A DNA stretch of 64,000 nt from positions 25,873 to 89,872 of the forward strand of contig CAYLYJ010000001.1 in NCBI GenBank assembly GCA_964388185.1, written 5' to 3'. The first letter of the stretch is position 1; every line of letters begins with the position of its first letter. The stretch is from an uncultured Coriobacteriaceae bacterium (GTDB lineage Bacteria > Actinomycetota > Coriobacteriia > Coriobacteriales > QAMH01). Under the pieces are notes generated by a model. That model did no database searches. It was not told where the DNA came from and saw only the letters and a program-made list of their open reading frames with translations. The position numbers and the translations under genes are program-made. Positions 31,965 to 44,643 of this stretch are shown piece by piece.

Positions 31965-31992
31965 GTGCCAGGGGGCCAGCCCCCCCCGGCAC
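31965..31992. repeat. REP-like palindrome, divergent variant
   Basis: GTGCCAGGGGG-CCAG-CCCCCCCGGCAC is an imperfect palindrome with the same G-run/C-run layout as the canonical REP. It lies 8 nt before a canonical copy. Confidence 0.6.
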
Positions 31993-32000
31993 ACTTTAAC

Positions 32001-32025
32001 GTGACAGGGGTCAGGCCCCTGTCAC
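32001..32025 (+). repeat. REP-like 25-nt palindromic hairpin element (also a plausible intrinsic terminator for the 27159 gene)
   Basis: GTGACAGGGG-TCAGG-CCCCTGTCAC read directly. It is followed immediately by GTTTTGTTTT, and it is the only copy with a clear T-tract. Confidence 0.9.
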
Positions 32026-32058
32026 GTTTTGTTTTGGGTCGCGGGGGCCGGCGGGAAT

Positions 32059-32083
32059 GTGTCAGGGGTCAGGCCCCTGTCAC
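32059..32083 (+). repeat. REP-like palindromic element (1 mismatch)
   Basis: GTGTCAGGGG-TCAGG-CCCCTGTCAC; the left arm has A>T. Confidence 0.85.
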
Positions 32084-32247
32084 ATTCGGGAGGTGCCGGT
32101 CAGGGGTGTAAAGCATGGCTGCTAAGTGGCTGGTCAGAGGGTCACGAGGCGCGGATTTTGGGTGTGTGGATGTATAGCAAATCGGGTGCTATCTCCGCAG
32201 GTCAGAGGCGTATAGCACGGCGATTTTCGAGGATGTGGGGGAGAGAT

Positions 32248-32272
32248 GTGACAGGGGCCAGGCCCCTGTCAC
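32248..32272. repeat. REP-like palindromic element (loop variant)
   Basis: GTGACAGGGG-CCAGG-CCCCTGTCAC; perfect 10-bp arms with loop CCAGG. Confidence 0.9.
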
Positions 32273-32391
32273 ATGGGGCGGCTTCGTCCGCAACCTGCTC
32301 GGGCGGAAGCCGGATTTCGCCCGGAAGAAAACCGGCGATTCCACGATTCCCGTTCGGCGAAACTGTCAGATCCGCTTGCTACGATTGCCCG

Positions 32392-32814
32392 ATGAACGGC
32401 GAGCGCGACATACGGGCCGAGAGGCGAGGACAGGCTTGCGGGAGGGTGATCATCCCGCCGGACGTGAACCTGTGGCCCCACGAGCTCAGGACCGCCGACG
32501 CGCTGGCGAGGGCGGGGCACGTGGTCGAGTTCGTGCGCAAGAACGACACGCCGCACGAAAAGACGGCGGATGCTCTTGTAGACGGCGTCCTGTGGGAGTT
32601 CAAGGCGCCGAGGTCGAGCCATCTGAGCGCCGTCGAGCGCAACCTGAAGAAGGGGCGTTGGCAATCAGAACGCATTGTATTTGACGGCAGGCGCATGAAG
32701 CGGCTGCCTGATTACGCAATTGAGCGAGAAGTTCGCACAAGAGCATATAGGATTCCGCATATCAGGAAGCTGCTTTACGTAAATAAGCAAGGGCAAATCA
32801 TTGACATAAAATGA
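32392..32814 (+). CDS. Small basic protein with a PD-(D/E)xK-like nuclease motif (CdiA-CT/toxin-domain-like), 140 aa
   Basis: ATG at 32392. The upstream 121 codons of track ORF 32029..32814 run through three REPs and are rejected. The sequence ...HELRTADALARAGHVVEFVRKNDTPHEKTADALVDGVLWEFKAP...GRWQSERIVFDG... carries a D-x(n)-E-x-K core (D..DGVLWEFK). From memory it resembles stand-alone CdiA-CT tRNase-like toxin domains. A TACGAT hexamer 6 nt before the ATG is conserved with the copy at 41180-41185, which suggests a possible leaderless mRNA. Confidence 0.55.
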   Translation: MNGERDIRAERRGQACGRVIIPPDVNLWPHELRTADALARAGHVVEFVRKNDTPHEKTADALVDGVLWEFKAPRSSHLSAVERNLKKGRWQSERIVFDGRRMKRLPDYAIEREVRTRAYRIPHIRKLLYVNKQGQIIDIK

Positions 32815-32839
32815 TTGTGCGCCTACAATTACTACCAGT

Positions 32840-32887
32840 AAAGCGCCGGAAAGGTACGTTAGTTACCTCCTCGGGCGCTTTCTTTTT
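32840..32887 (+). terminator. Intrinsic terminator-like hairpin after the 32392 gene
   Basis: AAAGCGCC (32840-32847) pairs with GGCGCTTT (32874-32881) around an imperfect inner stem, followed by CTTTTT. Confidence 0.6.
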
Positions 32888-32898
32888 ATGCGCAGAAC

Positions 32899-32942
32899 GT
32901 GACAGGGGTCAGGGAATGTGACAGGGGTCAGGCCCCTGTCAC
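32899..32942 (+). repeat. Half-REP plus full REP
   Basis: Half site GTGACAGGGGTCAGGG (32899-32914), then GTGACAGGGG-TCAGG-CCCCTGTCAC (32918-32942). Confidence 0.9.
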
Positions 32943-32995
32943 ATAAAGGCAGATCATTGACATTGGAAGAGGTCAGGAGATACAATAACCTCAGT

Positions 32996-33044
32996 AAAGC
33001 GCCGGAAAGGTACGTTAGTTTACCTCCTCGGGCGCTTTCTTTTA
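32996..33044 (+). terminator. Second copy of the terminator-like hairpin (part of a ~156-bp tandem duplication)
   Basis: It has the same AAAGCGCC...GGCGCTTT hairpin plus T-tract as 32840-32887, offset by 156 nt. The flanks also match (ggcaaatcattgacat at 32792 versus ggcagatcattgacat at 32948). Confidence 0.55.
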
Positions 33045-33054
33045 TGCGCAGTAC

Positions 33055-33079
33055 GTGACAGGGGCCTGCTCCCTGTCAC
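33055..33079 (-). repeat. REP-like palindromic element (variant)
   Basis: GTGACAGGGG-CCTGC-TCCCTGTCAC. Confidence 0.8.
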
Positions 33080-33115
33080 ATCGACGCGTTGGCAAGGGCG
33101 CGGCGTCGGATTGGT

Positions 33116-33141
33116 AAAAGAAAAGCCGCCCATGAGGCGGC
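33116..33141 (-). terminator. Rho-independent terminator for the minus-strand 33881-33167 operon
   Basis: The minus strand reads GCCGCC-TCATG-GGCGGC followed by TTTTCTTTT (plus strand aaaagaaaa gccgcc catga ggcggc). Confidence 0.7.
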
Positions 33142-33166
33142 CAGTCAGCACATATGTTCAAGCTAA

Positions 33167-33331
33167 CTATGCTGTGGTAATTTTAGCCGATTCAGCCGTA
33201 ATTCCAGCTTCCTCCTCCGGCTGTTGCGTCGGTGCGTCACCACTGCTTATCTCAGAGATAAAGATGTCACCGTTTCCGTCACTCGGAAACATGTCCCAGA
33301 AAGCCTTTCCGTGATCAGGTAAGTTCTTCAT
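33167..33331 (-). CDS. Possible 54-aa acidic microprotein overlapping the end of the JAB-like gene
   Basis: ATG at 33331 lies inside the last codons of the upstream gene (..ACA TAT GAA GAA CTT ACC TGA). The product is MKNLPDHGKAFWDMFPSDGNGDIFISEISSGDAPTQQPEEEAGITAESAKITTA. It ends 26 nt before the terminator. I recognise no homology. Confidence 0.3.
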   Translation of the reverse strand: MKNLPDHGKAFWDMFPSDGNGDIFISEISSGDAPTQQPEEEAGITAESAKITTA

Positions 33332-33881
33332 ATGTGACACCGTATCTTCGCTCGAGCGCCTTTGCCAGAGTATTGCTCCGGTCTCTCGACTCATAATACA
33401 TCAGATTCCTCAATATGAAGCTGTCTATCTCGTCGCCTCTTCCGGATTGCACAACGTCATTGAGCTTTTCCGCATCGGAGACACGATAGCGGATGACGCG
33501 GCCGTCATGGCAGGCAATCAGTCCGTATCTGAACGATCTGTGACTTACGAGGAGAAAATCCTTGAAGCTCGGCGGCATGCTCTCTGGGTGGTTATGCGCG
33601 GATATGAGGTCGCCGCGTTTTGCATTGTCTATTACGCGGATGTTCTCCCTCGACAGGGCGGCCATCTTTGGTTCCGATGAGGATGTCATCTTCGTGACGA
33701 CAGTCTTGCTACTTGCGCTTATAGCCGCGAAGTCCTCCATGACAGAACCGCTTCTGTGACGAAGCATGTCTCTTGCCGTGTCGCAAGCCGCGTCTCCCAG
33801 TTCATCGTCATCGAAGAAGTCGAATGCTCGCCTATATCCAGGTGAGCCTATTTCATCGAGATTGACGTTTGGGGTACGCAT
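33315..33881 (-). CDS. JAB/MPN (RadC-like) domain protein, 188 aa
   Basis: ATG at 33881 (the track starts one TTG codon earlier) sits after a purine-rich GGAAAGAAAG. The motif ISAHNHPESMPPSFKDF...GLIACHDGRVIRYRVS resembles the JAMM/RadC signature HNHPSGxxxPSxxD...DH, with one residue fewer between HxH and S. Confidence 0.45.
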   Translation of the reverse strand: MRTPNVNLDEIGSPGYRRAFDFFDDDELGDAACDTARDMLRHRSGSVMEDFAAISASSKTVVTKMTSSSEPKMAALSRENIRVIDNAKRGDLISAHNHPESMPPSFKDFLLVSHRSFRYGLIACHDGRVIRYRVSDAEKLNDVVQSGRGDEIDSFILRNLMYYESRDRSNTLAKALERRYGVTYEELT

Positions 33882-33923
33882 CAAATTCTTTCTTTCCTGC
33901 CGCCGTTGTGGTTCCTGGGCTAT

Positions 33924-33948
33924 GTGACAGGGGCCTGACCCCTGTCAC
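33924..33948 (-). repeat. REP-like 25-nt palindromic hairpin element
   Basis: GTGACAGGGG-CCTGA-CCCCTGTCAC read directly; 22 nt from the stop of the 33971 gene. Confidence 0.9.
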
Positions 33949-33970
33949 ATAAGGGTAAGGGAATAGATGT

Positions 33971-34624
33971 TTAGGGCAGGTCTAGTCCATTACTTTCTGC
34001 AACCTGTTTGATAACGAGCAATTTGTCTTCGGGAAGCTCTGCAAGATGGATTCGCAAGGCTTCCTGCTCCTGACAATTCTGTTTAATGAACCTTGGGAGT
34101 TCTCGTACGGCTTCTATGTCTTTAGGACGCTTTGTCTCTGGCCGCCTATTCGGGTTAATAAAAAGCTTGTGCGCGATATAAGATGCGGGGGTTGGGACTA
34201 TAAGGTGGTATCCTCGAACATCGATATTCATCGGGCAAAGCATATCCATATTGTCTAGGCTTTCAGCAGATATCCCTGTAAGAGGCAGTTCGTAAATCCC
34301 TTTTCCTTTGAAGGAGCTCAATAGGAATTCAACTTCTATGCCTTCTTTGAAGAATGAGCTTCCTGCACCAGGGTTTTCATAGAAGATGAATCCACTCTCG
34401 CGCAACGCCCAGCGCAGGTTTTCTGCCCCGTCTATTTCCAGAAAAGGGTTTATGTAGTACACGTCTATGTCATGTGTTCTGATATTGGGCAAAAAGTTAT
34501 CTTCAAAATAGTTCGCATAAAGGTACTCGGCCCAACTGCCGATAACCATGATATTTCTCAGGAATCCCGATTTATCGAGAACATCGATGAGATCCCAGAA
34601 AATGTCTTCGCGCGGTGAGTTCAT
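33971..34624 (-). CDS. Nucleotidyltransferase-fold protein (AbiEii/MNT-like toxin candidate), 217 aa
   Basis: Minimal NTase signature: VIGSWAEY...THDIDVYY (G-S ... D-x-D). The start MNSPRED at 34624 overlaps the upstream stop as ATGA (AAATGAAC), indicating translational coupling. The region is visibly AT-richer than its flanks. Confidence 0.55.
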   Translation of the reverse strand: MNSPREDIFWDLIDVLDKSGFLRNIMVIGSWAEYLYANYFEDNFLPNIRTHDIDVYYINPFLEIDGAENLRWALRESGFIFYENPGAGSSFFKEGIEVEFLLSSFKGKGIYELPLTGISAESLDNMDMLCPMNIDVRGYHLIVPTPASYIAHKLFINPNRRPETKRPKDIEAVRELPRFIKQNCQEQEALRIHLAELPEDKLLVIKQVAESNGLDLP

Positions 34625-34947
34625 TTGTGTCTCAGGGCCTTCTCGATGAAACATTGCTCTTGCTTGAGTCGCTTTAGCGTAAGCTCAAGCTGCTTTCGGT
34701 GCTCGACTTGCTGTCTAAGGCTAGATTCGACCTGTGCAGCGCGCCCGACGTAGTCGGTTACAACACGATTGCCGACGCGATGCTTGAGGTAGCAATATCT
34801 GTGATTGCTCCGCGTCTTGATTGCAACGCTGCCTTTCGGCAGAGAGGCAATCTCGGATTGGTAGGCTTCTTGTGCTCGGATGTTCCGGTCGAGCTCCTCA
34901 CGAAGTGTGTCTTTTATAATGTTAGATTCAGCCAACTGTTGCCCCAC
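34621..34947 (-). CDS. 108-aa coiled-coil/basic protein, putative cognate partner of the NTase
   Basis: GTG start at 34947. The product contains KTRSNHRYCYLKHRVGNRVVTDYVGR and a heptad-like C-terminus. It has a 4-nt ATGA overlap with the NTase gene. A perfect TATAAT lies on the minus strand at 34985-34980, upstream. Confidence 0.5.
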   Translation of the reverse strand: MGQQLAESNIIKDTLREELDRNIRAQEAYQSEIASLPKGSVAIKTRSNHRYCYLKHRVGNRVVTDYVGRAAQVESSLRQQVEHRKQLELTLKRLKQEQCFIEKALRHK

Positions 34948-35023: not shown

Positions 35024-35048
35024 GTGACAGGGGCCTGACCCCTGTCAC
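35024..35048 (-). repeat. REP-like 25-nt palindromic hairpin element
   Basis: GTGACAGGGG-CCTGA-CCCCTGTCAC read directly. Confidence 0.9.
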
Positions 35049-35050
35049 GC

Positions 35051-35800: not shown

Positions 35801-35821
35801 GGTCCTCCTTCCTGGACGTAT

Positions 35822-35846
35822 GTGACAGGGGCCTGACCCCTGTCAC
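35822..35846 (-). repeat. REP-like 25-nt palindromic hairpin element
   Basis: GTGACAGGGG-CCTGA-CCCCTGTCAC read directly. Confidence 0.9.
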
Positions 35847-35980
35847 ACCGCGCGCGGGTTTGTGCCGCTGAGCGGGGGAATCGTAGCACGGGAGCATCCG
35901 GGCGAAACACCCCCACAACCTGAACGGGTTCGGGATGATTTCGGTGCAATTTAGGAGTCTGTGCCGAGCGCGATAGGAAT

Positions 35981-36005
35981 GTGACAGGGGCCTGACCCCT
36001 GTCAC
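35981..36005 (-). repeat. REP-like 25-nt palindromic hairpin element
   Basis: GTGACAGGGG-CCTGA-CCCCTGTCAC with AAT/ATT flanks extending the palindrome. Confidence 0.9.
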
Positions 36006-36145
36006 ATTTCGGGGAAGCGCGACCGTTGCAGGAGAGACCTTAAACCGCCCCGCAAAGGCACGAAGCGCGCGTGGGGCGCCTGTTGCGCCGCGATCGGACG
36101 TCCGAGGCCTTCACGTGCGCGATCCGTGCCTTTACGGGGCGGACA

Positions 36146-36239
36146 GAGCCGGGCAAGCGTACCTGGGCTTGCCCGGCTCATCCCACGACAGGGCGAAGGC
36201 GCTGCCGCGGCAGTGCAATTTGCCCTACGCAAATTGCAC
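36146..36239. other. Two perfect hairpins in a gene-less REP-bounded slot
   Basis: GAGCCGGGCAAGC-gtacctgg-GCTTGCCCGGCTC (36146-36179, 13-bp stem) and GTGCAATTTGC-cctac-GCAAATTGCAC (36213-36239, 11-bp stem). There is no convincing ORF between REPs 36005 and 36266. Confidence 0.6.
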
Positions 36240-36265
36240 GTGGCTCACCAACGCGGGCAGGGGAC

Positions 36266-36290
36266 GTGACAGGGGCCTGACCCCTGTCAC
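36266..36290 (-). repeat. REP-like 25-nt palindromic hairpin element
   Basis: Perfect copy; 3 nt from the stop codon of the 36294 ATPase gene. Confidence 0.9.
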
Positions 36291-36293: not shown

Positions 36294-37553
36294 TTAGGGA
36301 GCGAGCGCGGCAAGCGGAACAACGAGAACGCCGTCTTCGCGCTGGTAGGCAGCCGACGTCGCGGTAAGTACCATCAGGAACGAAGGGGCTCCCTCAGATT
36401 CCCGATCCACTCTCTCCGCAAGCTTTCTCAGGTTCTTTGCCGCCTGGTCAATTTGCGCGTTCCCCATCTTGACTTCAACGGGAGCCCATCGTCCGTCTTC
36501 TAGCACGATTACCGCATCCGCCTCGAGCCCGGTCTTATCACGGTAGTGGCACACACGACCGCCCATCGCATCTGCGTAGACGCGCAGATCGCGTATACAT
36601 AGGGACTCGAATAATAGGCCGAAGGTGTTGAAATCACTCATGAGTGTAGTCGGAGATGCCCCGAGTATCGCGATCGCAACCGACGGATCGCAGAAGTGCC
36701 GTGTCGGGCTGGTCCGAACGGCGGTCTTCGACCTTAACCTCGGATTCCAGGCCTCCAGATCATCGATGACGAACGCACGAGCGAGGGCATCGACATAGTC
36801 GGAAACAGTAACCATAGATGGTGGCTCGCCTTGCATGTCGGCCCGGATGGTGGAAAGGGGTGCCTCGGTCGATATATTTCTCGCATATGAGCGCATGATG
36901 GCCCTGAGCCAGGTCGAGTTGCGCCTCGTACCCTCGAGCTCATCTATGTCAGCATCCATCATCTCGTCAACGTAGTTTTTCGCCTGGGCAAGAGCAATCT
37001 TCGAATCATGCTCGATTACCGCCTGAGGCCATCCGCCTCGGCAAAGGGCATACGCGATTCTGTCTATGTCGAATTCAACGAGGGACTCAATTTCGCTGTT
37101 GCTATCAAATAGTTTTCTGAGCGAGACTGCGCCGCTGGACTCTCCCGACTCATACAGGGACATTGTTCGCATGCGGAGGCGAGCGATGCGTCCCACGCCC
37201 GAGTGGACTGGCCGCTTCTTGGGTGTTGCGGAGCCCGTGAGGATATAGGCGCCCTTTTCCCTCGTCATGTCCACGTCGAATCTAACCGCATCCCACAGCT
37301 GCGGCGCCATTTGCCATTCGTCTATGAGTCGCGGCTTCGGTCCCTCTAGAATTGCCGATGGCTTAATATCGGCAAGGGCAAGAAGTGATTGACTCGTGTC
37401 GGGATCCTGGAGAAGGACCGTGCTTGCCGCCCTCTGACGGCCGGTTTCCGTCTTGCCGCACCATTTGGGTCCGGTTATCTGAACGGCGCCCGACGTGCGG
37501 AGCATCCAGTCGAGCGTTTGGTCTGCAACACGCGGGATATACTTCCAACTCAT
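36294..37553 (-). CDS. AAA+ ATPase of the COG1373 type (AAA_14-like N-domain plus DUF4143-like C-domain), 419 aa
   Basis: Start MSWKYIPRV at 37553, after AAGGAA. Walker A is GPKWCGKT and Walker B-like is RLIDEWQ. The C-terminal GLEADAVIVLEDGRWAPVEVKMG carries a D...E-V-K motif. Closest paralog is the 39430 gene. Confidence 0.85.
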   Translation of the reverse strand: MSWKYIPRVADQTLDWMLRTSGAVQITGPKWCGKTETGRQRAASTVLLQDPDTSQSLLALADIKPSAILEGPKPRLIDEWQMAPQLWDAVRFDVDMTREKGAYILTGSATPKKRPVHSGVGRIARLRMRTMSLYESGESSGAVSLRKLFDSNSEIESLVEFDIDRIAYALCRGGWPQAVIEHDSKIALAQAKNYVDEMMDADIDELEGTRRNSTWLRAIMRSYARNISTEAPLSTIRADMQGEPPSMVTVSDYVDALARAFVIDDLEAWNPRLRSKTAVRTSPTRHFCDPSVAIAILGASPTTLMSDFNTFGLLFESLCIRDLRVYADAMGGRVCHYRDKTGLEADAVIVLEDGRWAPVEVKMGNAQIDQAAKNLRKLAERVDRESEGAPSFLMVLTATSAAYQREDGVLVVPLAALAP

Positions 37554-37665: not shown

Positions 37666-37819
37666 GTGACAGGGGCCTGACCCCTGTCACATTTTGAGGG
37701 CCTGTGAGTGCGCAATGGGGTCTCTATGAGGCGTCGGCTGCTTGCGGGCTTCTGAGGGCGTTCTGGGGCTCCTACAGCCATGTTGCGACGCAACGTGACA
37801 GGGGCCTGGCACCTGTCAC
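37666..37819 (-). repeat. Composite element E1: REP - 104-nt conserved spacer - REP
   Basis: REP 37666-37690 is perfect; REP 37795-37819 is the variant GTGACAGGGGCCTGGCACCTGTCAC. The spacer aligns almost base for base with those at 39305-39408 and 40862-40968, and contains TTCTGAGGGC twice. Confidence 0.85.
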
Positions 37820-39263: not shown

Positions 39264-39433
39264 GTGACAGGGACCAAACGTGACAGGGACCTGGCACCTG
39301 TCACGTTCTGAGGGCTTGTGAGTGCGCAATGGGGTCTCTGGAGGCGTCGGCTGCTTGCAGGGTTTCTGAGGGCGTTCTGGAGCTTCTACGGCCATGTCGC
39401 GACGCGATGTGACAGGGGCCTGACCCCTGTCAC
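39264..39433 (-). repeat. Composite element E2: half-REP, REP - 104-nt conserved spacer - REP
   Basis: Half site GTGACAGGGACC (39264-39275), variant REP 39280-39304 and perfect REP 39409-39433. The TGA stop of the 39430 ATPase gene (39430-39432, minus strand) is the TGA of GTGACAGG. Confidence 0.85.
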
Positions 39434-40734
39434 GTTGTTAGCGTGCGAATCGGGATGACGTAGATCCCATCTTCCACGACGCGCACGTATTCTCCAATGC
39501 CAACTAGCACCGCCATGAATTCGGGAGCGCGCGTCCTCGCCCCTTGCTGTTCGCACAGCTTGTTTCTCAGACGCGTAAGGTTCTTCACCGCTTCGTTGAC
39601 TTTTGACTCGCTCGTCTTTATTTCGATTGCCGCCCATCGTCCATCGACGAGTTCGATGATCGCATCGACCTCGAGACCGGAATCATCGCGGTAGTAGCGT
39701 ATCGGAACGGGTCGAGCTAGTTCCATTGCCCGCGTGTATACGGCAAGGTCACGCATGCAGAGGTTCTCAAAGACGAGTCCAAACGTCTGCCAATCGGCAT
39801 AAAGGGATTCCGAAGACATGCCAAGGGCGGCAATGGCAAGCGACGGGTCAGCTAGATAGCGACGTGGCTTGACCTGCAGCCTCTTCTTCGATCGCGCCGC
39901 CGGTTCCCAGCCTGGGATTTCCGTCGACAGATAGATGCGATTGAGAAAACTAAGATACTCGCCAATCTGCCTATCACTCAGTTGTTCGCCTGTTGCCCCC
40001 AAGGCGTCTTCGCGAATGGTCCTGTAAGTTGCGGATTGTCCCAGGTTGCGAGCGATTGACGCAATGATACGCTCGGTGACAGATGAATCGAGGTCATTGT
40101 CAGGCGCACTCTCATAGCAAACCGCGGCAAGATATTCCCTCGCGATGGTCTGGGCGTTTGTCACTGGCATGTTAATTGCCTCTGGCCATCCGCCACGGCA
40201 AACAATGTCCACAAGCTCTTTTGTGTCCGACGGGGTTTTCTCTGTAGCTGGAGGACCATCAAAAAGCCCTGACAGGGAAACCGAACCCGTGGAATCTTGA
40301 GATTCCGAGAGCGTCATGGGAGCCATCCTGATACGCCCTATACGGCCTGCGCCGCTATGACGCTTGTCTGCTTGCGGTTGTCCCTTTCCATGCTGCGGCG
40401 GAGTCGATGATCCTGTAAGGATCCAGCCGCCGTGCAAGCCTCGTTCCTCGTCTGCGGCATGACGAACCAGATTCCATATAGAGGGGACGCGTTGCCACTC
40501 GTCTATGATATGCGGCTTTTCCCCAACCAACATGAGGGAAGGATCGTCCAGCGCAAGTGCGTATTCCTTGTCTACGTAGCTGATTGACGCCCCGTGTTGT
40601 CTGGCGGTCCACGTCTTGCCGCACCATTTGGTCCCCTCTATTTCGACGGCGCCGAAGATATCGAGGTAGCGCTCGAGCTGCGCGTCGACGATTCGCGGAA
40701 TGTACCCTTTTGGAGCTATAGGGGAGGGTTGCAT
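39430..40734 (-). CDS. AAA+ ATPase of the COG1373 type (AAA_14-like plus DUF4143-like), 434 aa
   Basis: Start MQPSPIAPKGYIPRIVD at 40734, 7 nt after AGGAG. Walker A is GTKWCGKT and Walker B-like is HIIDEWQ. The C-terminus reads GLEVDAIIELVDGRWAAIEIKTS. Confidence 0.85.
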   Translation of the reverse strand: MQPSPIAPKGYIPRIVDAQLERYLDIFGAVEIEGTKWCGKTWTARQHGASISYVDKEYALALDDPSLMLVGEKPHIIDEWQRVPSIWNLVRHAADEERGLHGGWILTGSSTPPQHGKGQPQADKRHSGAGRIGRIRMAPMTLSESQDSTGSVSLSGLFDGPPATEKTPSDTKELVDIVCRGGWPEAINMPVTNAQTIAREYLAAVCYESAPDNDLDSSVTERIIASIARNLGQSATYRTIREDALGATGEQLSDRQIGEYLSFLNRIYLSTEIPGWEPAARSKKRLQVKPRRYLADPSLAIAALGMSSESLYADWQTFGLVFENLCMRDLAVYTRAMELARPVPIRYYRDDSGLEVDAIIELVDGRWAAIEIKTSESKVNEAVKNLTRLRNKLCEQQGARTRAPEFMAVLVGIGEYVRVVEDGIYVIPIRTLTT

Positions 40735-40818: not shown

Positions 40819-40993
40819 GTGACAGGGACCGACGATGTGACAGGGGCCTGGCACCTGTCACGTTCTGAGGGCCTGTGAGTGCGCAATGGGGTCTCTCTGT
40901 GAGGCGCCGGCTGCTTGCAGGGCTTCTGAGGGCGTTCTGGAGTTTCTACGGCCATGTTGCGACGCGATGTGACAGGGGCCTGACCCTTGTCAC
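40819..40993 (-). repeat. Composite element E3: half-REP, REP - 107-nt conserved spacer - REP
   Basis: Half site GTGACAGGGACC (40819-40830), variant REP 40837-40861 and REP 40969-40993 (CCCTTGTCAC arm). Confidence 0.85.
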
Positions 40994-40998
40994 AATTT

Positions 40999-41049
40999 TT
41001 AGCAGACACTTTGCAAGTTGGACTGTTTTGAGTTTACGAGTTGGACGAT
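40999..41049. repeat. Orphan copy of the 5' region of the 37553 ATPase gene
   Basis: ttagcagacactttgcaagttggactgttttgagtttacgagttggacgat matches 37591-37665 (same leader plus the 23-bp repeat, one unit fewer). Here it has no gene attached, and a REP sits on each side. Confidence 0.8.
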
Positions 41050-41073
41050 GTGACAGGGGCTGACCCCTGTCAC
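41050..41073 (-). repeat. REP-like palindromic element (24 nt, 1-nt deletion in loop)
   Basis: GTGACAGGGG-CTGA-CCCCTGTCAC. Confidence 0.85.
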
Positions 41074-41191: not shown

Positions 41192-41473
41192 ATGAACGAC
41201 GAGTGCAACATATGGGCCGGCGGACGAGCGAACGTGCATGTGGTCAAGGCGGTGGGGTCTGGCGATCCCGTTTGGCGAGGCGAAGCTACGCAAATGAACG
41301 GCGTGAAGGAGGTAACCAGGCAAATACAAGAGGCGTTTGCCATGCTTGAGATTTGCTCTGCCAAACTTGGTGTGTATAATACATTGTATGGGACTGGTCC
41401 TGTGGACCCTGGTCCTACCTGCGGCGGGGATATTCCCCGCCATTCCTCTTTCATGAGGTGTCCTCTTGCCTGA
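41192..41473 (+). CDS. Hypothetical 93-aa ORF sharing its leader and first codons with the 32392 gene (possible remnant)
   Basis: Bases 41097-41220 align with 32297-32420, including TACGAT, 6 nt and the ATG at the same offset; the sequences then diverge. The stop overlaps the TTG start of the next ORF (cTTGCCTGA). I recognise no domain. Confidence 0.3.
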   Translation: MNDECNIWAGGRANVHVVKAVGSGDPVWRGEATQMNGVKEVTRQIQEAFAMLEICSAKLGVYNTLYGTGPVDPGPTCGGDIPRHSSFMRCPLA

Positions 41474-41810
41474 TCTCGGGATCTTTATAGACGAGTCAGG
41501 CGATGTCGGATCGAACTCCGATTTCTATATCGTCACGCTCGTTCTACATGATCAGTCGAGTTCAATTGGATCTCAAGTTACGAGATTCGAAAATGAGCTC
41601 TCCTACCTTGGGATACCCGCTAATTCGATTATTCATGCTGGTCCGATTGTGCGCAGAGAAGAAGCCTATAAATACATGACGCTCGAGCTGCTGCGATTGA
41701 AAGAACGGCGCGGGGTTGCGCTGAGCCGGTCGGAGCAGATTTTTTTCGAAAGCAAGAGACGTCTAAACAAGGTCTTTCTCAAAACGTTGCGAAAGATCTC
41801 GTTTCAATGA
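41466..41810 (+). CDS. DUF3800-like protein, short/truncated form (114 aa)
   Basis: TTG start after GAGG. The N-terminus LGIFIDESGDVGSNSDFYIVTLVLHD...IIHAGPIVRREEAYKYM matches the DUF3800 pattern (yIDESG ... H ...), but the ORF is about half the usual length. Upstream are TGTGTATAAT and a GGCGGGGA-tat-TCCCCGCC hairpin (41423-41441). Confidence 0.45.
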   Translation: MPDLGIFIDESGDVGSNSDFYIVTLVLHDQSSSIGSQVTRFENELSYLGIPANSIIHAGPIVRREEAYKYMTLELLRLKERRGVALSRSEQIFFESKRRLNKVFLKTLRKISFQ

Positions 41811-41837
41811 TTGACCTAAGAGTGCGAAACGCAGAAT

Positions 41838-41852
41838 GTGACAGGGGGCAGG
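41838..41852. repeat. Partial REP (left arm only)
   Basis: GTGACAGGGGGCAGG with no right arm; 11 nt from the higA stop. Confidence 0.6.
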
Positions 41853-41863
41853 ATCTGGCGCAA

Positions 41864-42157
41864 TTATGCGTTCTTCACGAGGGGTGTGACCTGCGGGAGC
41901 TTGGACGCGTCGAGTAGTTTGAGCTGGTAGGTTGCCTCGAGGTTGAGCCAGAACTCCGGGGTAGTGCCGAGCGCCTTGCTAAGCAGCCAGGCCATTTCAG
42001 GAGTGATGGCTCTGCGGCCGTGGACGATTTCAGATATCGCGGATTGCGGCTTGCCGATTGCCTTGGCCAGGCGGTATTGGCTGATGCCAAGGGGATCCAA
42101 GAACTCCTCGAGCAGGATTTCGCCTGGGCTCGAGATGACATCGCTAATGGTAGTCAC
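41864..42157 (-). CDS. higA: HigA-family antitoxin (XRE-type HTH), 97 aa
   Basis: The GTG start at 42157 overlaps the end of higB by 14 nt. The product VTTISDVISSPGEILLEEFLDPLGISQYRLAKAIGKPQSAISEIVHGRRAITPEMAWLLSKALGTTPEFWLNLEATYQL is the classic HigA antidote pattern. The 233-aa track ORF is a read-through artefact. Confidence 0.9.
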   Translation of the reverse strand: MTTISDVISSPGEILLEEFLDPLGISQYRLAKAIGKPQSAISEIVHGRRAITPEMAWLLSKALGTTPEFWLNLEATYQLKLLDASKLPQVTPLVKNA

Positions 42158-42428
42158 AGAACTCAACTCCCGTCGCCTCGCCGTTTTCCCATGTAAAGCA
42201 CAGGCGCCATTGGCTGTTGACTCGTATGCTATAACGCTCAAAACGGGTGCCCCTGAGCAGTTCAAGCCTGTTTCCCGGCGGAATACGCAGGTCAGCAATT
42301 GCGTGGGCGGCATCGAGCATTTGAAGCTTGCGGTAGAGCGTTTTGCGCAGCTCGGGCGGTACGCGTCTGGGGTGGGACAGCATGGGGGCGTTCCAGAACG
42401 CCTCGATGTCTTTGTCTGCAAATTGCAC
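42144..42428 (-). CDS. higB: HigB toxin (RelE/ParE superfamily, plasmid-maintenance killer type), 94 aa
   Basis: ...LPPELRKTLYRKLQMLDAAHAIADLRIPPGNRLELLRGTRFERYSIRVNSQWRLCFTWENGEATGVEFCDYH matches the HigB-like toxin consensus. GTG start at 42428, 5 nt after GGAG. Confidence 0.9.
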   Translation of the reverse strand: MQFADKDIEAFWNAPMLSHPRRVPPELRKTLYRKLQMLDAAHAIADLRIPPGNRLELLRGTRFERYSIRVNSQWRLCFTWENGEATGVEFCDYH

Positions 42429-42458
42429 GCTCGCTCCATTGTTACGTGGCGCAGGAAT

Positions 42459-42487
42459 ATACTACTGTCGCGCGGAAGTATTGTCAA
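42459..42487 (-). promoter_or_regulatory. Sigma-70-like promoter for higBA
   Basis: The minus strand reads TTGACA (42487-42482), a 17-nt spacer, then TAGTAT (42464-42459). The spacer contains GCGCGGAA (plus strand 42470-42477). Confidence 0.55.
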
Positions 42488-42497
42488 GAGACACGAT

Positions 42498-42522
42498 GTG
42501 ACAGGGGCCTGACCCCTGTCAC
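42498..42522 (-). repeat. REP-like 25-nt palindromic hairpin element
   Basis: Perfect copy with CGAT/ATCG flanks. Confidence 0.9.
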
Positions 42523-42615
42523 ATCGCCGGGGTGAGCGTTGTTGACGGCATGAATATCTCCTCATCTGGGCATACGAAAGACGTTCGGTGTTTTACACCC
42601 TTTTCACTTAGAAAT

Positions 42616-42640
42616 GTGACAGGGGCCTGACCCCTGTCAC
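42616..42640 (-). repeat. REP-like 25-nt palindromic hairpin element
   Basis: Perfect copy with AAAT/ATTT flanks. Confidence 0.9.
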
Positions 42641-42702
42641 ATTTTGAGTATGTAAAGTGGGGAGTGTGATATAGTTATATAAAGTAGTTGAGAGGATGAA
42701 AA

Positions 42703-43863
42703 ATGATTCATCGCGCGTTAAGCGAAACGCTGTTGGAGATGGCGGGGGAGTACCCCGTTGTCGTGCTCACGGGGGCGAAGCAAACGGGAAAATCGACGCT
42801 TGCGAAGTCCTCGTTTCCCGGGTATCGACACATCTCGCTAGAGGATCCGGACGAACGGGAGTTCGCGCGGGATGACCCGCGGGCGTTTCTCGCGCATTGC
42901 GGCACGCGGGTGATTCTGGACGAGGCTCAGTTGGCACCCGATCTGCTCGGCTTCATCTTGCAGGCCCTCGACGCCAGGTGCGAGCCGGGGATGTTCGTGC
43001 TGACGGTATCGGCAAACTCCCTGCTCATAAGGCATATTCTCGAGAAGAACGATGATCGAGTCGGCGTTTTGCAGCTGCTGCCACTGACGTGCGCGGAGGC
43101 GGCGCAGATACGCGTCGAGTCCGATTGGACGTGGATTCTCAAGGGCGGTTATCCACGCATATATGATTTCGATAGCCGGCCAGGCGAGTACTTTCCTCGG
43201 TATATTCGAACGTATTTGGAGCGTGAAGTGCACGCTGACCTTGGCGTTCGGGAGCTAGAAGCGTTCGAGCGGTTCATGCGGGCGTGCGCGGTGCGGATTG
43301 GGAGGCCGCTCAATATCAACGAGCTGGCGCGGGAGTGCGGGGTTAGCGCGAAGACGGCGCGGAGTTGGTTGCGTGCCTTGCAGCGCGGGCAAGTGGTGCG
43401 ACTGGTGCCGGCGTTTTGGGCGGCGATTGGCAAGCGGCTGACGCGGTCGCCGAAGCTGTACTTCTACGACACGGGGCTGGCATGCAATTTGCTCGGGATC
43501 GGGCGGGTTGACGAGGCTGAGCGTGGTGCGTACCGGGGCGTTTTGTTCGAGAATGCCGTGCTGGCGGAGCTGCTGAAGGCGCGAGCGAATACGGGGCGGC
43601 CAGCTAACGTGCAGTATATGCGGGACAGCAATGGGAGCGGTGTAGACTTTATCGTTACCGGGGACGATGGGGCGCTGACGCTGATTGAGGCTGAGGCGTC
43701 GTCGACATATAACGAGTGCTTCTTCAAGCAGCTCGAGAAGTTCGGGCCGCTATTGGGTGTGCCAGTCGAGTCGCGATATGTGGTGTTTGGTGGCGAGGAG
43801 CGGATGGAGGCTCCGGGCGGTCGCGTGCTCGGCCTGCGGCATGTGCACGAGCTCGTTGAGTAG
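42703..43863 (+). CDS. AAA+ ATPase of the COG1373 type (AAA_14-like plus DUF4143-like), 386 aa
   Basis: ATG at 42703 after GAGAGGA. Walker A is GAKQTGKS and Walker B is VILDEAQ. The C-terminal GSGVDFIVTGDDGALTLIEAEAS has E-A-E in place of E-x-K, so the nuclease-like motif is degenerate. Confidence 0.85.
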   Translation: MIHRALSETLLEMAGEYPVVVLTGAKQTGKSTLAKSSFPGYRHISLEDPDEREFARDDPRAFLAHCGTRVILDEAQLAPDLLGFILQALDARCEPGMFVLTVSANSLLIRHILEKNDDRVGVLQLLPLTCAEAAQIRVESDWTWILKGGYPRIYDFDSRPGEYFPRYIRTYLEREVHADLGVRELEAFERFMRACAVRIGRPLNINELARECGVSAKTARSWLRALQRGQVVRLVPAFWAAIGKRLTRSPKLYFYDTGLACNLLGIGRVDEAERGAYRGVLFENAVLAELLKARANTGRPANVQYMRDSNGSGVDFIVTGDDGALTLIEAEASSTYNECFFKQLEKFGPLLGVPVESRYVVFGGEERMEAPGGRVLGLRHVHELVE

Positions 43864-43954
43864 GGCTAAATGTGAGTGTGCAAAATGGATACTAAAGAAA
43901 ATGAATATATAGAGATAATAGATATGCAAAATGGCCATATTCTAAATATCAAAT

Positions 43955-43979
43955 GTGACAGGGGTCAGGCCCCTGTCAC
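43955..43979 (+). repeat. REP-like 25-nt palindromic hairpin element
   Basis: GTGACAGGGG-TCAGG-CCCCTGTCAC. Confidence 0.9.
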
Positions 43980-44303
43980 ATGGGCGATCTCGCGATAAAG
44001 GCGATGCGATGAAGTGGAGAGAAATCTCGACGCATCGTGATACTGGATATGCCAGCAAAGCAAGGTTTCTGGTTATTGGGTAGAGCGACATGGTTGATAT
44101 GACCGTTATTCTTGGAATTGATTAACCGAGTTATGGCAACTTGATCGGATTTCTCGAGAGCCCTCAGAAAATAGCGCGTCAGAATGGCGTGTAACGGGTT
44201 TTTCTGAGTATCTATGAGTACCAAGTAGTTTAAAGATTTCGGGCCCTTAAATGGGCTCTATTTGCTTCACGTGATAAAAGCCCTGGTCAGATAGGGGCAA
44301 AAT

Positions 44304-44328
44304 GTGACAGTAATCTGACCTCTGTCAC
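44304..44328 (-). repeat. Degenerate REP
   Basis: GTGACAGTAATCTGACCTCTGTCAC keeps the GTGACAG...CTGTCAC ends and the CTGA loop core. Confidence 0.6.
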
Positions 44329-44344
44329 GGAAATGTGGATCGCT

Positions 44345-44611
44345 ATGGAAGCGGGAGTTTTTGCAGACACCGCAGAAGTTATGTCAAAAGGCCAGGTCAC
44401 AATACCCAAAGATGTCTGCAGCGCATTGGGTGTATTAACAGGTGACAAAGTCACATTCCTTGTTGAGGGCAGTAATGTGCGTATGGTAAATGCAGCAACA
44501 TATGCCATGCAGACTTTTCAGCAAGGGATGGCAGGCGAAGCTATGTCTTCGGGAATCACGAGTCCTGATGACGTCACTGATCTCGTTTCATCATTGCGGT
44601 CAAACGGATAG
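44345..44611 (+). CDS. AbrB/MazE/SpoVT-family DNA-binding protein (orphan antitoxin-like), 88 aa
   Basis: SKGQVTIPKDVCSALGVLTGDKVTFLVEGSNVRMV is the SpoVT-AbrB swapped-hairpin pattern. ATGs at 44333, 44345 or 44381 are all possible starts. No toxin gene follows; only REPs do. Confidence 0.7.
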   Translation: MEAGVFADTAEVMSKGQVTIPKDVCSALGVLTGDKVTFLVEGSNVRMVNAATYAMQTFQQGMAGEAMSSGITSPDDVTDLVSSLRSNG

Positions 44612-44618
44612 GGAAGAT

Positions 44619-44643
44619 GTGACAGGGGCCTGACCCCTGTCAC
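44619..44643 (-). repeat. REP-like 25-nt palindromic hairpin element
   Basis: Perfect copy, 7 nt after the AbrB-like stop. Confidence 0.9.

What the first reader, a model, noticed from the sequence alone, without database searches (positions are those of the whole stretch)
31965..44643. REP-delimited cassette array: each gene module of the accessory island is individually bracketed by the same 25-nt hairpin
Reading left to right, REP copies sit at both ends of every module. In order: [32248 | nuclease-like 32392-32814 | 32918]; [33055 | JAB-like operon 33167-33881 | 33924]; [33924 | NTase pair 33971-34947 | 35024]; [35024 | RAYT 35051-35800 | 35822]; two gene-less slots (35846-35981 and 36005-36266); [36266 | ATPase 36294-37553 | 37666]; [37795 | ATPase 37822-39135 | 39280]; [39409 | ATPase 39430-40734 | 40837]; [41050 | ORF pair 41192-41810 | 41838 partial]; [41838 | higBA 41864-42428 | 42498]; [42616 | ATPase 42703-43863 | 43955]; [44304 degenerate | AbrB-like 44345-44611 | 44619]. 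REP-to-stop distances are often only 2-22 nt. The content is TA modules, nucleases, small orphans and paralogous ATPases. The architecture is single-gene units separated by an ssDNA-foldable palindrome, with one DNA-processing enzyme inside. Both recall sedentary chromosomal integron arrays with attC/VCR sites. The difference is that the only such enzyme here is an HUH/Y1 RAYT-type transposase, not a tyrosine integrase. Whether the REPs merely colonised intergenic DNA or actually mediate cassette gain and loss cannot be decided from one sequence. I am not aware of a described RAYT-driven cassette system.
Basis: partly seen in the sequence, partly recalled or inferred. Interest (0 to 1): 0.85.

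Follow-up and report, generated by a model that had tools for sequence, protein, structure and literature searches.

The report
Genome-wide REP hairpins crowd variable island
The repeated 25-base hairpin is this gut bacterium's ordinary genome-wide REP element, whose RAYT enzyme gene lies in this region; it fills most gaps between genes everywhere and is not a dedicated cassette system, but related strains do lose or swap gene modules with break points right at these hairpins.

Summary
The palindrome GTGACAGGGG-CCTGA-CCCCTGTCAC occurs 31 times in the window (0 expected). 27 copies lie in the 14-kb, lower-GC island of toxin-antitoxin, nuclease and AAA_14/DUF4143 ATPase genes, and 11-12 of its 12 inter-operon gaps are occupied. 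The 249-aa protein is a RAYT with HUH and Tyr, flanked directly by REPs.

The integron-like reading is not supported as a dedicated system. In a housekeeping locus of the same species the same REP occupies 7 of 11 gaps, equally close to stop codons. A sister species keeps that gene order with no REPs. Related RAYTs sit among core genes. The paralogous ATPases are 22-41% identical, yet their REP-spacer-REP units are 88-92% identical.

Across strains, 7 of 8 indels or replacements in the island (ATPase1, higBA, hipBA, the 189-aa gene and others) have a breakpoint within 5 nt of a REP. One REP-to-REP deletion also removes core genes, though it rests on one short contig. Truncated REPs mostly end at one bond, GGGGCC|TGA. 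That is a C|T, the dinucleotide that E. coli RAYT cleaves.

Verdict: a classical REP/RAYT system in Coriobacteriia, with REPs acting as rearrangement hot spots. Interest is moderate.

The parts
31965..31992 (.). Variant palindrome GTGCCAGGGGGCCAGCCCCCCCCGGCAC, a second, related hairpin family
   Evidence: a similar copy is in core locus L039 at 7970
32001..32272 (.). Three REP copies (32001, 32059, 32248) in the gap after the giant surface-protein gene that ends at 31886
   Evidence: conserved in strains L045-L048
32392..32814 (+). Small protein with a CdiA_C (toxin nuclease) domain, followed by its own terminator-like hairpin
   Evidence: Pfam PF18451, E 6e-11; 100% identical protein P0241 in other strains
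32899..32942 (.). Half REP (GTGACAGGGGTCA|) plus full REP 32918-32942
32943..33054 (.). Remnant of the 3' end and terminator of a second CdiA_C-like gene, lying between two REPs. It is part of the 137-bp REP-to-REP unit (32918-33054) that L045 lacks; L047 and L049-L052 also carry only one terminator+REP copy here.
33055..33079 (.). REP copy
33167..33884 (-). Two-gene unit (75 aa and 189 aa) with no family match. It is partly deleted in L046/L048 by a 676-bp deletion that starts 2 nt after REP 32918.
33924..33948 (.). REP copy
33971..34947 (-). NTP_transf_8 nucleotidyltransferase plus DUF6788 partner
35024..35048 (.). REP copy 2 nt from the RAYT stop codon
35051..35800 (-). RAYT (REP-associated Y1/HUH transposase) with a C-terminal HTH-like extension
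   Evidence: Pfam Y1_Tnp, E 4e-15; NCBIfam REP_Tyr_transpos 69 bits; invariant H60, H62, Y119
35822..36290 (.). Three REPs (35822, 35981, 36266) enclosing two gene-less slots. Slot 2 (36006-36265) is a strongly structured ~230-nt non-coding element.
36294..37553 (-). ATPase 1 (AAA_14+DUF4143). The 36264-37792 module is absent in L045, L046 and L048, with junctions in or next to REPs.
37666..37819 (.). REP-104 nt-REP doublet
37822..39135 (-). ATPase 2 (AAA_14+DUF4143)
39264..39433 (.). Half REP plus REP-104 nt-REP doublet. A 76-nt stretch of the spacer is absent in L045, L046 and L048; the indel starts 3-4 nt after the REP.
39430..40734 (-). ATPase 3 (AAA_14+DUF4143)
40819..41073 (.). Half REP, then a REP-107 nt-REP doublet, then a remnant of an ATPase1-type upstream region (40994-41049), then a REP with a 1-nt deletion (41050-41073)
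41390..41810 (+). DUF3800-XI RNA motif (41390-41438) and a truncated DUF3800 gene (41466-41810). The gene is full length (224 aa) in L045.
41838..41849 (.). REP truncated in its loop and fused to the higA 3' flank. The copy is intact in L045.
41864..42428 (-). higBA module (HigB-like toxin plus HTH_3 antitoxin). In L045 it is replaced by an 85%-identical paralogue of slot 2.
42498..42640 (.). Two REPs (42498, 42616)
42703..43863 (+). ATPase 4 (AAA_14+DUF4143)
   Evidence: collinear in L007 and L045
43955..44328 (.). REP 43955 and degenerate REP 44304. The 44304 copy is well formed in strain L007.
44345..44611 (+). MazE/AbrB-like small protein
44619..45750 (.). Seven REPs in the 1.3-kb non-coding stretch upstream of the next giant surface-protein gene
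58741..58963 (.). Two REPs outside the island, between two surface-protein genes
61766..61832 (.). Two REPs outside the island, after the stop codon at 61659

Best explanation
The 25-nt hairpin is the REP of a classical REP/RAYT system (a 'REPtron') that has saturated the intergenic DNA of this human-gut Coriobacteriia species genome-wide. The 14-kb region is a strain-variable island of toxin-antitoxin and defence-type genes next to giant adhesin genes. It happens to contain the RAYT gene.

Every module looks bracketed for two reasons. Most inter-operon gaps in this genome carry REPs, often a few nucleotides from stop codons. And the island is made of very short operons, so it has many gaps per kilobase.

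Shown: REPs were inserted into pre-existing gene junctions. REP doublets spread independently of the genes they flank.

Shown for loss and replacement, inferred for mechanism: once present, REPs act as preferred break and recombination points. Modules are deleted or replaced between strains with junctions in or next to REPs, here and in at least one core locus.

The mechanism is inferred and is one or both of two routes. One is REP x REP recombination, which leaves a single hybrid REP. The other is breakage at a fixed bond in the hairpin loop (GGGGCC|TGA), possibly by RAYT nicking at C|T.
For: - REP statistics and positions.
- RAYT identity: Y1_Tnp, a closer match to REP_Tyr_transpos than to IS200, invariant HUH and Tyr, and REPs 2 nt and 22 nt from its ends, conserved in four other strains.
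- Same-species core locus L039-L042: 10 REPs in 15.3 kb, 7 of 11 gaps occupied, REPs 0-39 nt from stop codons of housekeeping genes. REP density is 3.0 per intergenic kb (5.2 without one 1.4-kb gap), against 5.6 in the island.
- The other two non-island gaps in the window also carry REPs.
- QZME contigs show REPs beside an unannotated 333-aa gene, modD and a BrnT module.
- The sister species (86% nt identity) is syntenic but has zero REPs. Its MarR and radical-SAM stop codons abut exactly where L039 has a half REP plus a REP.
- The sister species also has a TA island after its giant adhesin and CdiA_C genes, with no such REP and no RAYT within 10 kb.
- RAYT homologues (62% and 42% identity) lie among core genes and are flanked by their own REPs.
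- The ATPases are 22-41% identical in protein, but their REP-spacer-REP units are 88-92% identical in DNA.
- Strain variation: 7 of 8 structural differences touch a REP (P = 1.4e-5, or 0.01 if only intergenic positions are allowed).
- A core REP-to-REP deletion removes DUF8052 and cstA.
Against: - REP density per intergenic kb is still about 2-fold higher in the island than in the one core locus available. Gap occupancy (11-12 of 12 against 7 of 11) is borderline different (Fisher p about 0.07-0.15).
- 18 consecutive REPs (33055-42640) share one orientation, whereas the core locus is mixed. REP saturation alone does not explain this.
- In Pseudomonas, horizontally acquired regions of atypical composition are typically REP deserts (PMC3390384). 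A REP-dense, low-GC island is therefore unusual for the family.
- The genome-wide baseline rests on one 15-kb core locus in four strains plus a few short contigs. No complete genome of the species was available.
- Assigning L039-L042 to the window's species is indirect (via ModD 98% identity and shared REPs with QZME contigs).
Confidence: 0.75

Rival explanations
1. A dedicated RAYT-driven cassette system analogous to an integron. REPs play the role of attC sites. The RAYT excises REP-bounded single-gene units as ssDNA and re-inserts them at REPs, building the array by capture.
For: - Modules are REP-bounded.
- 18 REPs in a row share one orientation.
- The only DNA-processing enzyme found among the island ORFs scanned is the RAYT.
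- Single modules (ATPase1, higBA, hipBA) are present or absent between strains with junctions at REPs.
- E. coli TnpA_REP catalyses cleavage and strand transfer between REP-containing ssDNAs in vitro (PMC3333891).
Against: - The same REPs bracket housekeeping genes at similar occupancy.
- REPs were inserted into a conserved gene order.
- Gaps hold 1-7 REPs.
- Modules lie on both strands; at least two have their own terminator-like hairpins, and consensus-like promoter matches occur in the island.
- RAYT homologues in relatives are not in arrays.
- The sister species has a comparable TA island without this REP or a RAYT.
- All observed events can be read as deletions or differential loss. No module was seen at two different REP sites.
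Confidence: 0.06
2. REPs colonised the genome as in the best explanation, but the rearrangements at REPs are made by the RAYT itself. It nicks the hairpin loop at C|T (GGGGCC|TGA) and joins the end elsewhere. Under this reading the domesticated transposase is an active driver of modular deletion and replacement.
For: - 9 of 12 truncated REPs, at independent loci in the island and in core regions, end or start at the same phosphodiester bond (chance about 5e-9).
- These include a 5' half fused to unrelated DNA (41838) and a 3' half left by the ATPase1 deletion in L046/L048.
- E. coli TnpA_REP cleaves between C and T, and its strong site is GGCC|TACA (PMC3333891).
- One-ended deletions start 2-5 nt from REP feet.
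Against: - No biochemistry exists for this enzyme.
- Known RAYT sites lie 5' or 3' of the hairpin or in linkers, guided by GTAG, which this REP lacks.
- The partner ends of the junctions are not C|T.
- 'Half plus full REP' could be a propagated element variant rather than repeated events.
- Hairpin-loop cleavage by SbcCD-type nucleases, or replication errors at palindromes, could also focus breaks in the loop.
- Two junctions (L045 ATPase1 and the 137-bp unit) look like plain REP x REP recombination.
Confidence: 0.2
3. REPs are retained at each module boundary because they work as transcription terminators, mRNA-stabilising hairpins or insulators between independently regulated toxin-antitoxin modules.
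For: - Many REPs lie 0-22 nt from stop codons.
- The hairpin is very stable.
- Roles for REPs in mRNA stability and termination are described for enterobacteria (own knowledge; also the introductions of PMC3333891 and PMC3479197).
Against: - Only about 4 of 27 island REPs have a T-rich tail on any strand, and it is often on the wrong strand for the adjacent gene.
- At least two modules carry separate terminator-like hairpins between the stop codon and the REP (33124-33142; the hairpin after CdiA_C at about 32840-32885, read by eye).
- Many REPs are start-proximal or occur in multiples.
- The sister species manages the same genes without them.
Confidence: 0.1
4. The array arose by tandem duplication of a [REP-gene-REP] unit followed by divergence.
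For: Three ATPase genes in tandem share the same layout and near-identical REP-spacer-REP units.
Against: The ATPases are only 22-41% identical in protein and 55-60% in DNA, while the spacers are 88-92% identical. The other modules are unrelated to each other.
Confidence: 0.03

Closest known systems
REPtron / REP-BIME with TnpA_REP (RAYT) of E. coli, Stenotrophomonas and Marinomonas (PMC3333891, PMC8266576, PMC2817692)
   Same: - An HUH/Y1 enzyme gene directly flanked by copies of a short GC-rich extragenic palindrome.
- The palindrome is dispersed through intergenic DNA, often near the 3' ends of genes and often in doublets.
- The REP family is species-specific.
- The breakpoint signature at a C|T matches the known cleavage dinucleotide.
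   Different: - The REP has no GTAG (or CGTC) tag. It starts with GTGAC and is a perfect 10-bp stem with a 5-nt loop.
- The putative cleavage bond is inside the loop.
- The RAYT is 249 aa with a conserved C-terminal HTH-like tail.
- The host is a Coriobacteriia. A full-text search found no paper combining 'repetitive extragenic palindromic' with Coriobacteriia taxa among its top hits.
REPIN/RAYT systems of Pseudomonas (Bertels and Rainey; PMC5581495, PMC3390384)
   Same: - RAYT flanked by REPs.
- REP doublets with a conserved spacer behave as a unit that spreads independently of neighbouring genes.
- In relatives, the RAYT lies in syntenic core context.
   Different: - In Pseudomonas, acquired regions of atypical composition are REP deserts. 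Here the low-GC variable island is the REP-densest region seen.
- The doublets here are same-orientation REPs about 104 nt apart, not inverted pairs 60-70 bp apart.
IS200/IS605 family (IS608, ISDra2)
   Same: - Y1 HUH transposase fold.
- Subterminal hairpins recognised as ssDNA.
- A gene lying between two like-oriented hairpins is formally the architecture of such an element.
   Different: - No evidence that the RAYT gene or any REP-bounded gene is multi-copy or mobile as a unit.
- NCBIfam scores the protein closer to RAYT than to IS200.
Sedentary chromosomal integrons (attC/VCR arrays)
   Same: - A dense array of short modules rich in toxin-antitoxin genes.
- Modules are separated by an ssDNA-foldable palindrome, largely in one orientation.
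- Module content varies between strains with breakpoints at the palindromes.
   Different: - No IntI tyrosine recombinase, attI or Pc.
- The palindrome is not array-specific but genome-wide.
- There are several palindromes per junction.
- Modules lie on both strands, and at least two have their own terminator-like hairpins.
- Capture is not demonstrated.

Membership tests
REP/RAYT system (REPtron) | Encodes an HUH/Y1 transposase-fold protein with an HUH motif and a catalytic Tyr | tested here: met
   Pfam Y1_Tnp, E 3.7e-15. H60-V-H62 and R118-Y119-I-H121-x-N123-P124 are invariant in 14 homologues.
REP/RAYT system (REPtron) | Protein matches the curated RAYT model rather than the IS200 transposase model | tested here: inconclusive
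   NCBIfam REP_Tyr_transpos scores 69.2 bits, below the equivalog cut-off of 80. IS200 scores only 29.2 bits against a cut-off of 55. No PDB sequence match.
REP/RAYT system (REPtron) | RAYT gene flanked on both sides by the repeated palindrome | tested here: met
   REPs lie 2 nt after the stop and 22 nt before the start. The arrangement is the same in L038, L045, L046 and L048. Homologues P0003 and P0085 are likewise flanked by their own REPs.
REP/RAYT system (REPtron) | Palindrome is highly repeated, extragenic and dispersed genome-wide | tested here: met
   31 copies in the window. 10 copies in a 15-kb core locus of the same species. Copies also lie next to modD, an unannotated 333-aa gene, guaA and ferrochelatase in related contigs. 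No complete genome was available to count copies.
REP/RAYT system (REPtron) | Conserved GTAG (or CGTC) tetranucleotide tag at one foot of the REP | tested here: not met
   The REP foot is (A)AY-GTGAC. No GTAG or CGTC is present. The tags are as defined in PMC3733652 and PMC8266576.
REP/RAYT system (REPtron) | RAYT is single-copy and binds and cleaves its REP as ssDNA | not testable with these tools
   This needs a complete genome and biochemistry. The only indirect hint is that truncated REPs end at C|T.
Integron | IntI tyrosine recombinase with attI and Pc next to the array | tested here: not met
   Pfam scans of the island ORFs I selected (19 queries) found no integrase.
Integron | Recombination sites are specific to the array, one per cassette | tested here: not met
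   The same REP lies in core-gene gaps. Island gaps hold 1-7 REPs each.
Integron | Cassette presence, absence or order varies between strains with breakpoints at the sites | tested here: met
   ATPase1, higBA versus slot-2 paralogue, hipBA, and the 137-bp unit. Only loss or replacement is shown, not capture.
Integron | Mostly promoterless cassettes in one orientation, read from a common promoter | tested here: not met
   Modules lie on both strands. Promoter-like and terminator-like sites occur within the island, including a terminator-like hairpin after the 75-aa gene.
IS200/IS605 insertion sequence | The whole unit (hairpin-tnpA-hairpin) is present in multiple identical copies or in variable locations | tested here: inconclusive
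   There is one copy in the window, at the same position in five strains. Homologues are in fixed core contexts. A whole genome was not available.

The most novel reading that the evidence does not exclude
The RAYT of this Coriobacteriia species is active in vivo on its REPs. It nicks the hairpin loop at GGGGCC|TGA and joins ends. REPs would then serve as enzyme-defined recombination sites through which gene-sized modules are deleted, replaced and possibly captured. These are toxin-antitoxin, ATPase and nuclease modules in this island, and occasionally core genes. The truncated REPs would be the first natural 'footprints' of RAYT chemistry acting on genes rather than on REPs alone.
Probability: 0.15. 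Interest if true: 0.7.

Novelty: new member of a known kind. Interest (0 to 1): 0.4.

Why it matters
REP/RAYT systems are well studied in Proteobacteria. I found no description of one in Coriobacteriia, a common human-gut class. Here a REP without the canonical GTAG tag saturates a genome, while a sister species at 86% identity has none in the 20-kb core locus and the 20-kb island locus examined. That gives clean filled-site versus empty-site pairs for studying how REPs invade.

Several practical points follow:
- Such REPs fragment short-read assemblies. Many contigs here end at or close to REPs.
- They can rewrite stop codons and gene 3' ends.
- They mark most structural variation in this accessory island.

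If the loop C|T breakpoint reflects RAYT nicking, it bears on a long-standing question: what domesticated RAYTs do for the host. It would link them to modular genome plasticity. As it stands, the finding is mostly explained by known biology.

Tried and rejected
- Exact-sequence look-ups of three window proteins (RAYT, ATPase4, NTase) found nothing. I reached strain relatives through homologue searches instead.
- The single genome-contig scan with the REP found only 5 isolated copies in fragmented MAGs. The metagenome scan found 23 mostly single-copy loci. Neither gave a complete genome of the species, so the genome-wide REP count could not be made.
- The PDB sequence search with the RAYT gave no match.
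- I tested whether stop-proximal REPs always present the same loop strand in the mRNA. This holds in the island but fails in core locus L039, so I dropped it as a rule.
- I tested whether REPs are intrinsic terminators. Only about 4 copies qualify.
- I rejected tandem duplication of ATPase cassettes on the identity contrast.
- I considered chimeric assembly at REPs as an explanation for the junctions. It remains a caveat for the short QZME contigs L013 and L026. It is unlikely for the L046/L048 junctions, which are identical in two independent samples and assemblers, one of them at k = 141.
- RNAalifold on slot 2 gave a very stable fold, but there were too few sequences to assess covariation.
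- 'JAB-like' for the 189-aa protein could not be confirmed.

Full report
**1. The observation**

The palindrome GTGACAGGGG-CCTGA-CCCCTGTCAC (or its complement, with loop TCAGG) occurs 30 times at <=3 mismatches, against none in 100 shuffles. At <=4 mismatches there are 31 copies. 27 copies lie between 32001 and 45750. Two lie at 58741/58939, between two surface-protein genes; the 5235-aa ORF 45952-61659 is a chance read-through of at least two genes. Two more lie at 61766/61808.

The sequence also shows a copy with a 1-nt deletion at 41050 and half copies at 32899, 39264, 40819 and 41838. The palindrome usually extends by RAAY/RTTY. It folds as ssDNA at about -14.7 kcal/mol, z about -7.

- CdiA_C domain protein
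- NTP_transf_8 plus DUF6788
- Y1_Tnp RAYT
- four AAA_14+DUF4143 ATPases
- HigB with an HTH_3 antitoxin
- MazE/AbrB-like protein

'JAB-like' has no family support. The island has 55% GC against 62-65% in the flanks. Eleven of its twelve inter-operon gaps hold at least one full REP, and the twelfth holds a truncated one.

**2. Organism and enzyme**

RAYT homologues and REP-bearing contigs come from uncultured Coriobacteriia/Eggerthellaceae of the human gut.

The RAYT has invariant H60-x-H62 and Y119 (YIHxNP), plus a conserved C-terminal HTH-like tail. It scores 69 bits on NCBIfam REP_Tyr_transpos (cut-off 80) against 29 bits on IS200. REPs lie 2 nt from its stop codon and 22 nt from its start codon. 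This arrangement is conserved in strains L038, L045, L046 and L048.

**3. Is the bracketing special to this island? No.**

I took a housekeeping protein (ModD) from a contig of the same metagenome whose other contigs match the window at 93-97%. With it I retrieved the modD locus from four samples.

The best contig, L039 (15.3 kb), carries 10 copies of the identical REP. They occupy 7 of 11 inter-gene gaps among radical-SAM, PAP2, modD, DUF8052, cstA, marR, spoVA and DUF1846 genes. They lie 0-39 nt from stop codons, and some supply the stop codon itself. REP density per kb of intergenic DNA is 3.0 (5.2 without one 1.4-kb gap), against 5.6 in the island.

Housekeeping genes are therefore bracketed in the same way.

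A sister species (86% nucleotide identity, 2.04-Mb contig) has the same gene order and no REP at all in the syntenic 20 kb. Its MarR and radical-SAM stop codons abut (TAG|CTA) exactly where L039 has about 50 nt containing a half REP plus a REP. REPs are therefore insertions into a pre-existing gene order.

The sister species also has a toxin-antitoxin island directly after its giant adhesin and a CdiA_C homologue: PhdYeFM-ParE, Gp49-HTH and PDDEXK_2. That island has no GTGACAGGGG REP and no RAYT within 10 kb. It does have its own different palindrome.

Related RAYTs lie in core contexts, each flanked by its own REPs:
- The 62%-identity homologue lies next to pyruvate carboxylase, nusB and dxs.
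- The 42%-identity homologue, from Curtanaerobium respiraculi, lies between a GerE regulator and shikimate dehydrogenase.

In other MAGs the identical REP sits singly between an amino-acid permease and guaA, between ferrochelatase and ligT, and next to an MFS transporter.

**4. REPs spread independently of the genes**

The four ATPases are 22-41% identical in protein. The three REP-104 nt-REP units between them are 88-92% identical in DNA. This excludes recent tandem duplication of cassettes. It fits a REP doublet that spreads, or is homogenised, on its own, as described for REPINs and BIMEs.

Only about 4 island REPs resemble intrinsic terminators. At least two modules have separate terminator-like hairpins: one after the 75-aa gene and one after CdiA_C, read by eye.

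**5.

A 100%-identical CdiA_C protein led to eight same-species contigs covering the island. Alignment to the window gave the following differences.

(a) The ATPase1 module (36264-37792, 1529 bp) is absent in L045. The junction there is a single hybrid REP: left flank of REP 36266, REP of the 37795 type, right flank of 37795.

(b) The ATPase1 module is also absent in L046 and L048, but with a different junction: REP 36266, then gttta, then a 3' half REP (TGACCCCTGTCAC). These two contigs come from independent samples and assemblers, SPAdes scaffolds and MEGAHIT at k = 141. This is a separate deletion that ends in the loop of the next REP.

(c) A 137-bp unit (REP 32918 to REP 33055, enclosing the 3' remnant of a second CdiA_C-like gene) is absent in L045.

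(d) A 676-bp deletion in L046/L048 starts 2 nt after REP 32918 and ends inside the 189-aa gene.

(e) A 76-nt spacer indel starts 3-4 nt after REP 39280.

(f) higBA (about 41848-42615) is replaced in L045 by an 85%-identical paralogue of 'slot 2'. The replaced segment is bounded on the left by a REP that is intact in L045 but truncated in its loop in the window. It is bounded on the right by REP 42616.

(g) In metagenome contig L013, the REP after the CdiA_C gene is followed by a hipBA module (Couple_hipA plus HTH_3) instead of the window's neighbours.

(h) A 320-bp indel inside the DUF3800 gene has no REP.

Thus 7 of 8 events have a breakpoint within 5 nt of a REP. The chance probability is 1.4e-5 over all island positions, or 0.01 if only intergenic positions are allowed.

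Other stretches are collinear between strains: 34713-36005 at 97.5% and 43393-45803 at 93-96%, with REP-adjacent indels.

The same kind of event occurs in the core genome. Contig L026 lacks DUF8052 and cstA, with one REP at the junction and the 3' flank of the distal REP retained. L041 has one extra REP in the cstA-marR gap.

Caveat: L013 and L026 are short, low-coverage contigs. A chimeric join at a repeat cannot be excluded for those two.

All events can be read as loss or differential loss. Capture of a module was not observed.

**6. A mechanistic hint**

Twelve truncated REPs were found at different loci, in the island and in core regions. Nine end or begin at the same bond, GGGGCC|TGA, which reads TCA|GG on the other strand. 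The chance probability is about 5e-9, or about 5e-8 if two paralogous sites are counted once.

Most are a 5' half followed after 2-6 nt by a full REP. One (41838) is fused to unrelated DNA, and one is the 3' half in L046/L048.

The bond lies between C and T. E. coli TnpA_REP cleaves C|T, with GGCC|TACA as a strong site, and it catalyses strand exchange between REP-containing ssDNAs (PMC3333891). Related enzymes cleave CT or CA, guided by the GTAG tag (PMC8266576).

This fits RAYT nicking but does not prove it:
- The REP here lacks GTAG.
- The bond is in the loop rather than beside the hairpin.
- The partner ends are not C|T.
- Hairpin nucleases or replication errors at palindromes are alternatives.

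**7. Comparison with known systems**

The system has the defining anatomy of a REP/RAYT 'REPtron': an HUH/Y1 enzyme flanked by the dispersed extragenic palindrome. It fails only the GTAG/CGTC tag.

It fails the integron definition on four counts: the integrase, the site specificity, one site per cassette, and cassette architecture. It resembles integrons only in having TA-rich modules whose presence varies at the palindromes.

It differs from Pseudomonas, where acquired regions of atypical composition are REP deserts (PMC3390384). Here the low-GC island is the REP-densest region seen.

A run of 18 like-oriented REPs remains unexplained.

A full-text search found no paper among its top hits that combines 'repetitive extragenic palindromic' with Coriobacteriia taxa.

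**8. Verdict**

The array is best explained by genome-wide REP saturation of a short-operon accessory island that houses the RAYT (confidence 0.75).

REPs are real hot spots for module loss and replacement. A dedicated RAYT-driven cassette-capture system is unlikely (about 0.06). The narrower idea, that RAYT nicking at the loop C|T drives these rearrangements, is open (about 0.15-0.2).

Novelty: a new member of a known kind. Interest: 0.4.

Noticed in passing
window 41390-41438 (+) and 41466-41810: An Rfam DUF3800-XI RNA motif (43.9 bits, gathering score 37.8) lies just upstream of a truncated DUF3800 gene (114 aa). Strain L045 has the full 224-aa gene; the window lacks 320 bp, lost between short direct repeats.
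   Followed up: partly
window 36006-36265; L045 18067-18417: 'Gene-less slot 2' is a GC-rich, about 230-nt element with three long hairpins (consensus fold -130 kcal/mol). A second copy at 85% identity replaces higBA in strain L045. It could be a non-coding RNA or another small mobile element. There were too few sequences to assess covariation.
   Followed up: partly
window 33055-42640: Eighteen consecutive REPs share one orientation (loop CCTGA/CCTGG on the + strand). The 9 full copies (excluding a 4-mismatch one) in the core locus L039 are mixed, 5 to 4. Neither the direction of neighbouring genes nor REP saturation explains this.
   Followed up: partly
window 32899, 39264, 40819, 41838; L039 714, 5257, 8491; L015 1120; L046 9431: Truncated REPs recur and end or start at the same bond, GGGGCC|TGA. 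Most are a 5' half followed 2-6 nt later by a full REP.
   Followed up: yes
window 45952-61659: This 5235-aa ORF is a read-through of at least two surface-protein genes. A sortase-type PRTGD motif, membrane anchor and RRRRR lie near residue 4050. About 1 kb of stop-free intergenic DNA follows, containing two REPs that translate as VTGVRPLSH. A new signal peptide starts near 59138.
   Followed up: partly
window 45300-45930: A second short repeat family, AAGCGCGGAAC-N(4-6)-GGTCAG, occurs about 8 times in the non-coding stretch upstream of the giant surface-protein gene. It is conserved in strain L007.
   Followed up: no
window 32801-32885 and 32957-33050: A near-consensus sigma-70 promoter match (TTGACA-17-TACAAT, 11 of 12) overlaps the last codons of the CdiA_C gene. 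It points into the terminator hairpin about 10 nt downstream. It is duplicated with the gene remnant. No immunity gene follows the toxin domain.
   Followed up: no
L053 9286-11820 (sister species): In the sister species, each of the first three island modules is preceded by a repeated leader of about 250 nt. Its 3' part (CGTTCGGCG...) resembles the sequence upstream of the window's CdiA_C gene (32290-32392) and its copy at 41100-41192. The sister species also has its own palindrome, CCGTAGGGCGCG...CGCGCCCTACGG, in both island and core gaps.
   Followed up: partly
L039 8476-8531, 5257-5301; L026 136-160: REP insertions have replaced the last codons and now supply the stop codon of housekeeping genes (radical SAM, modD), compared with the REP-free sister species.
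   Followed up: partly
L039 5908-7743 versus L043 11464-13314: cstA is inverted between the two sister species within an otherwise collinear locus. It is absent, together with DUF8052, in contig L026, where the junction is at a REP.
   Followed up: partly
window 31965-31992; L039 7970-8000: A second, related palindrome family (GTGCCAGGGGG...CCCC..GGCAC) occurs in the window and in the core locus. It resembles the REP that flanks the 62%-identical RAYT of another species (GTGTCAGGGGGTCAGACCCC..GACAC, L029).
   Followed up: no
L029 10840-10921: The contig ends with an inverted copy of the RAYT 3' end immediately after a REP doublet. This is probably a fold-back assembly artefact at the palindrome. 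Many contigs carrying these REPs end within about 150 nt of one.
   Followed up: no
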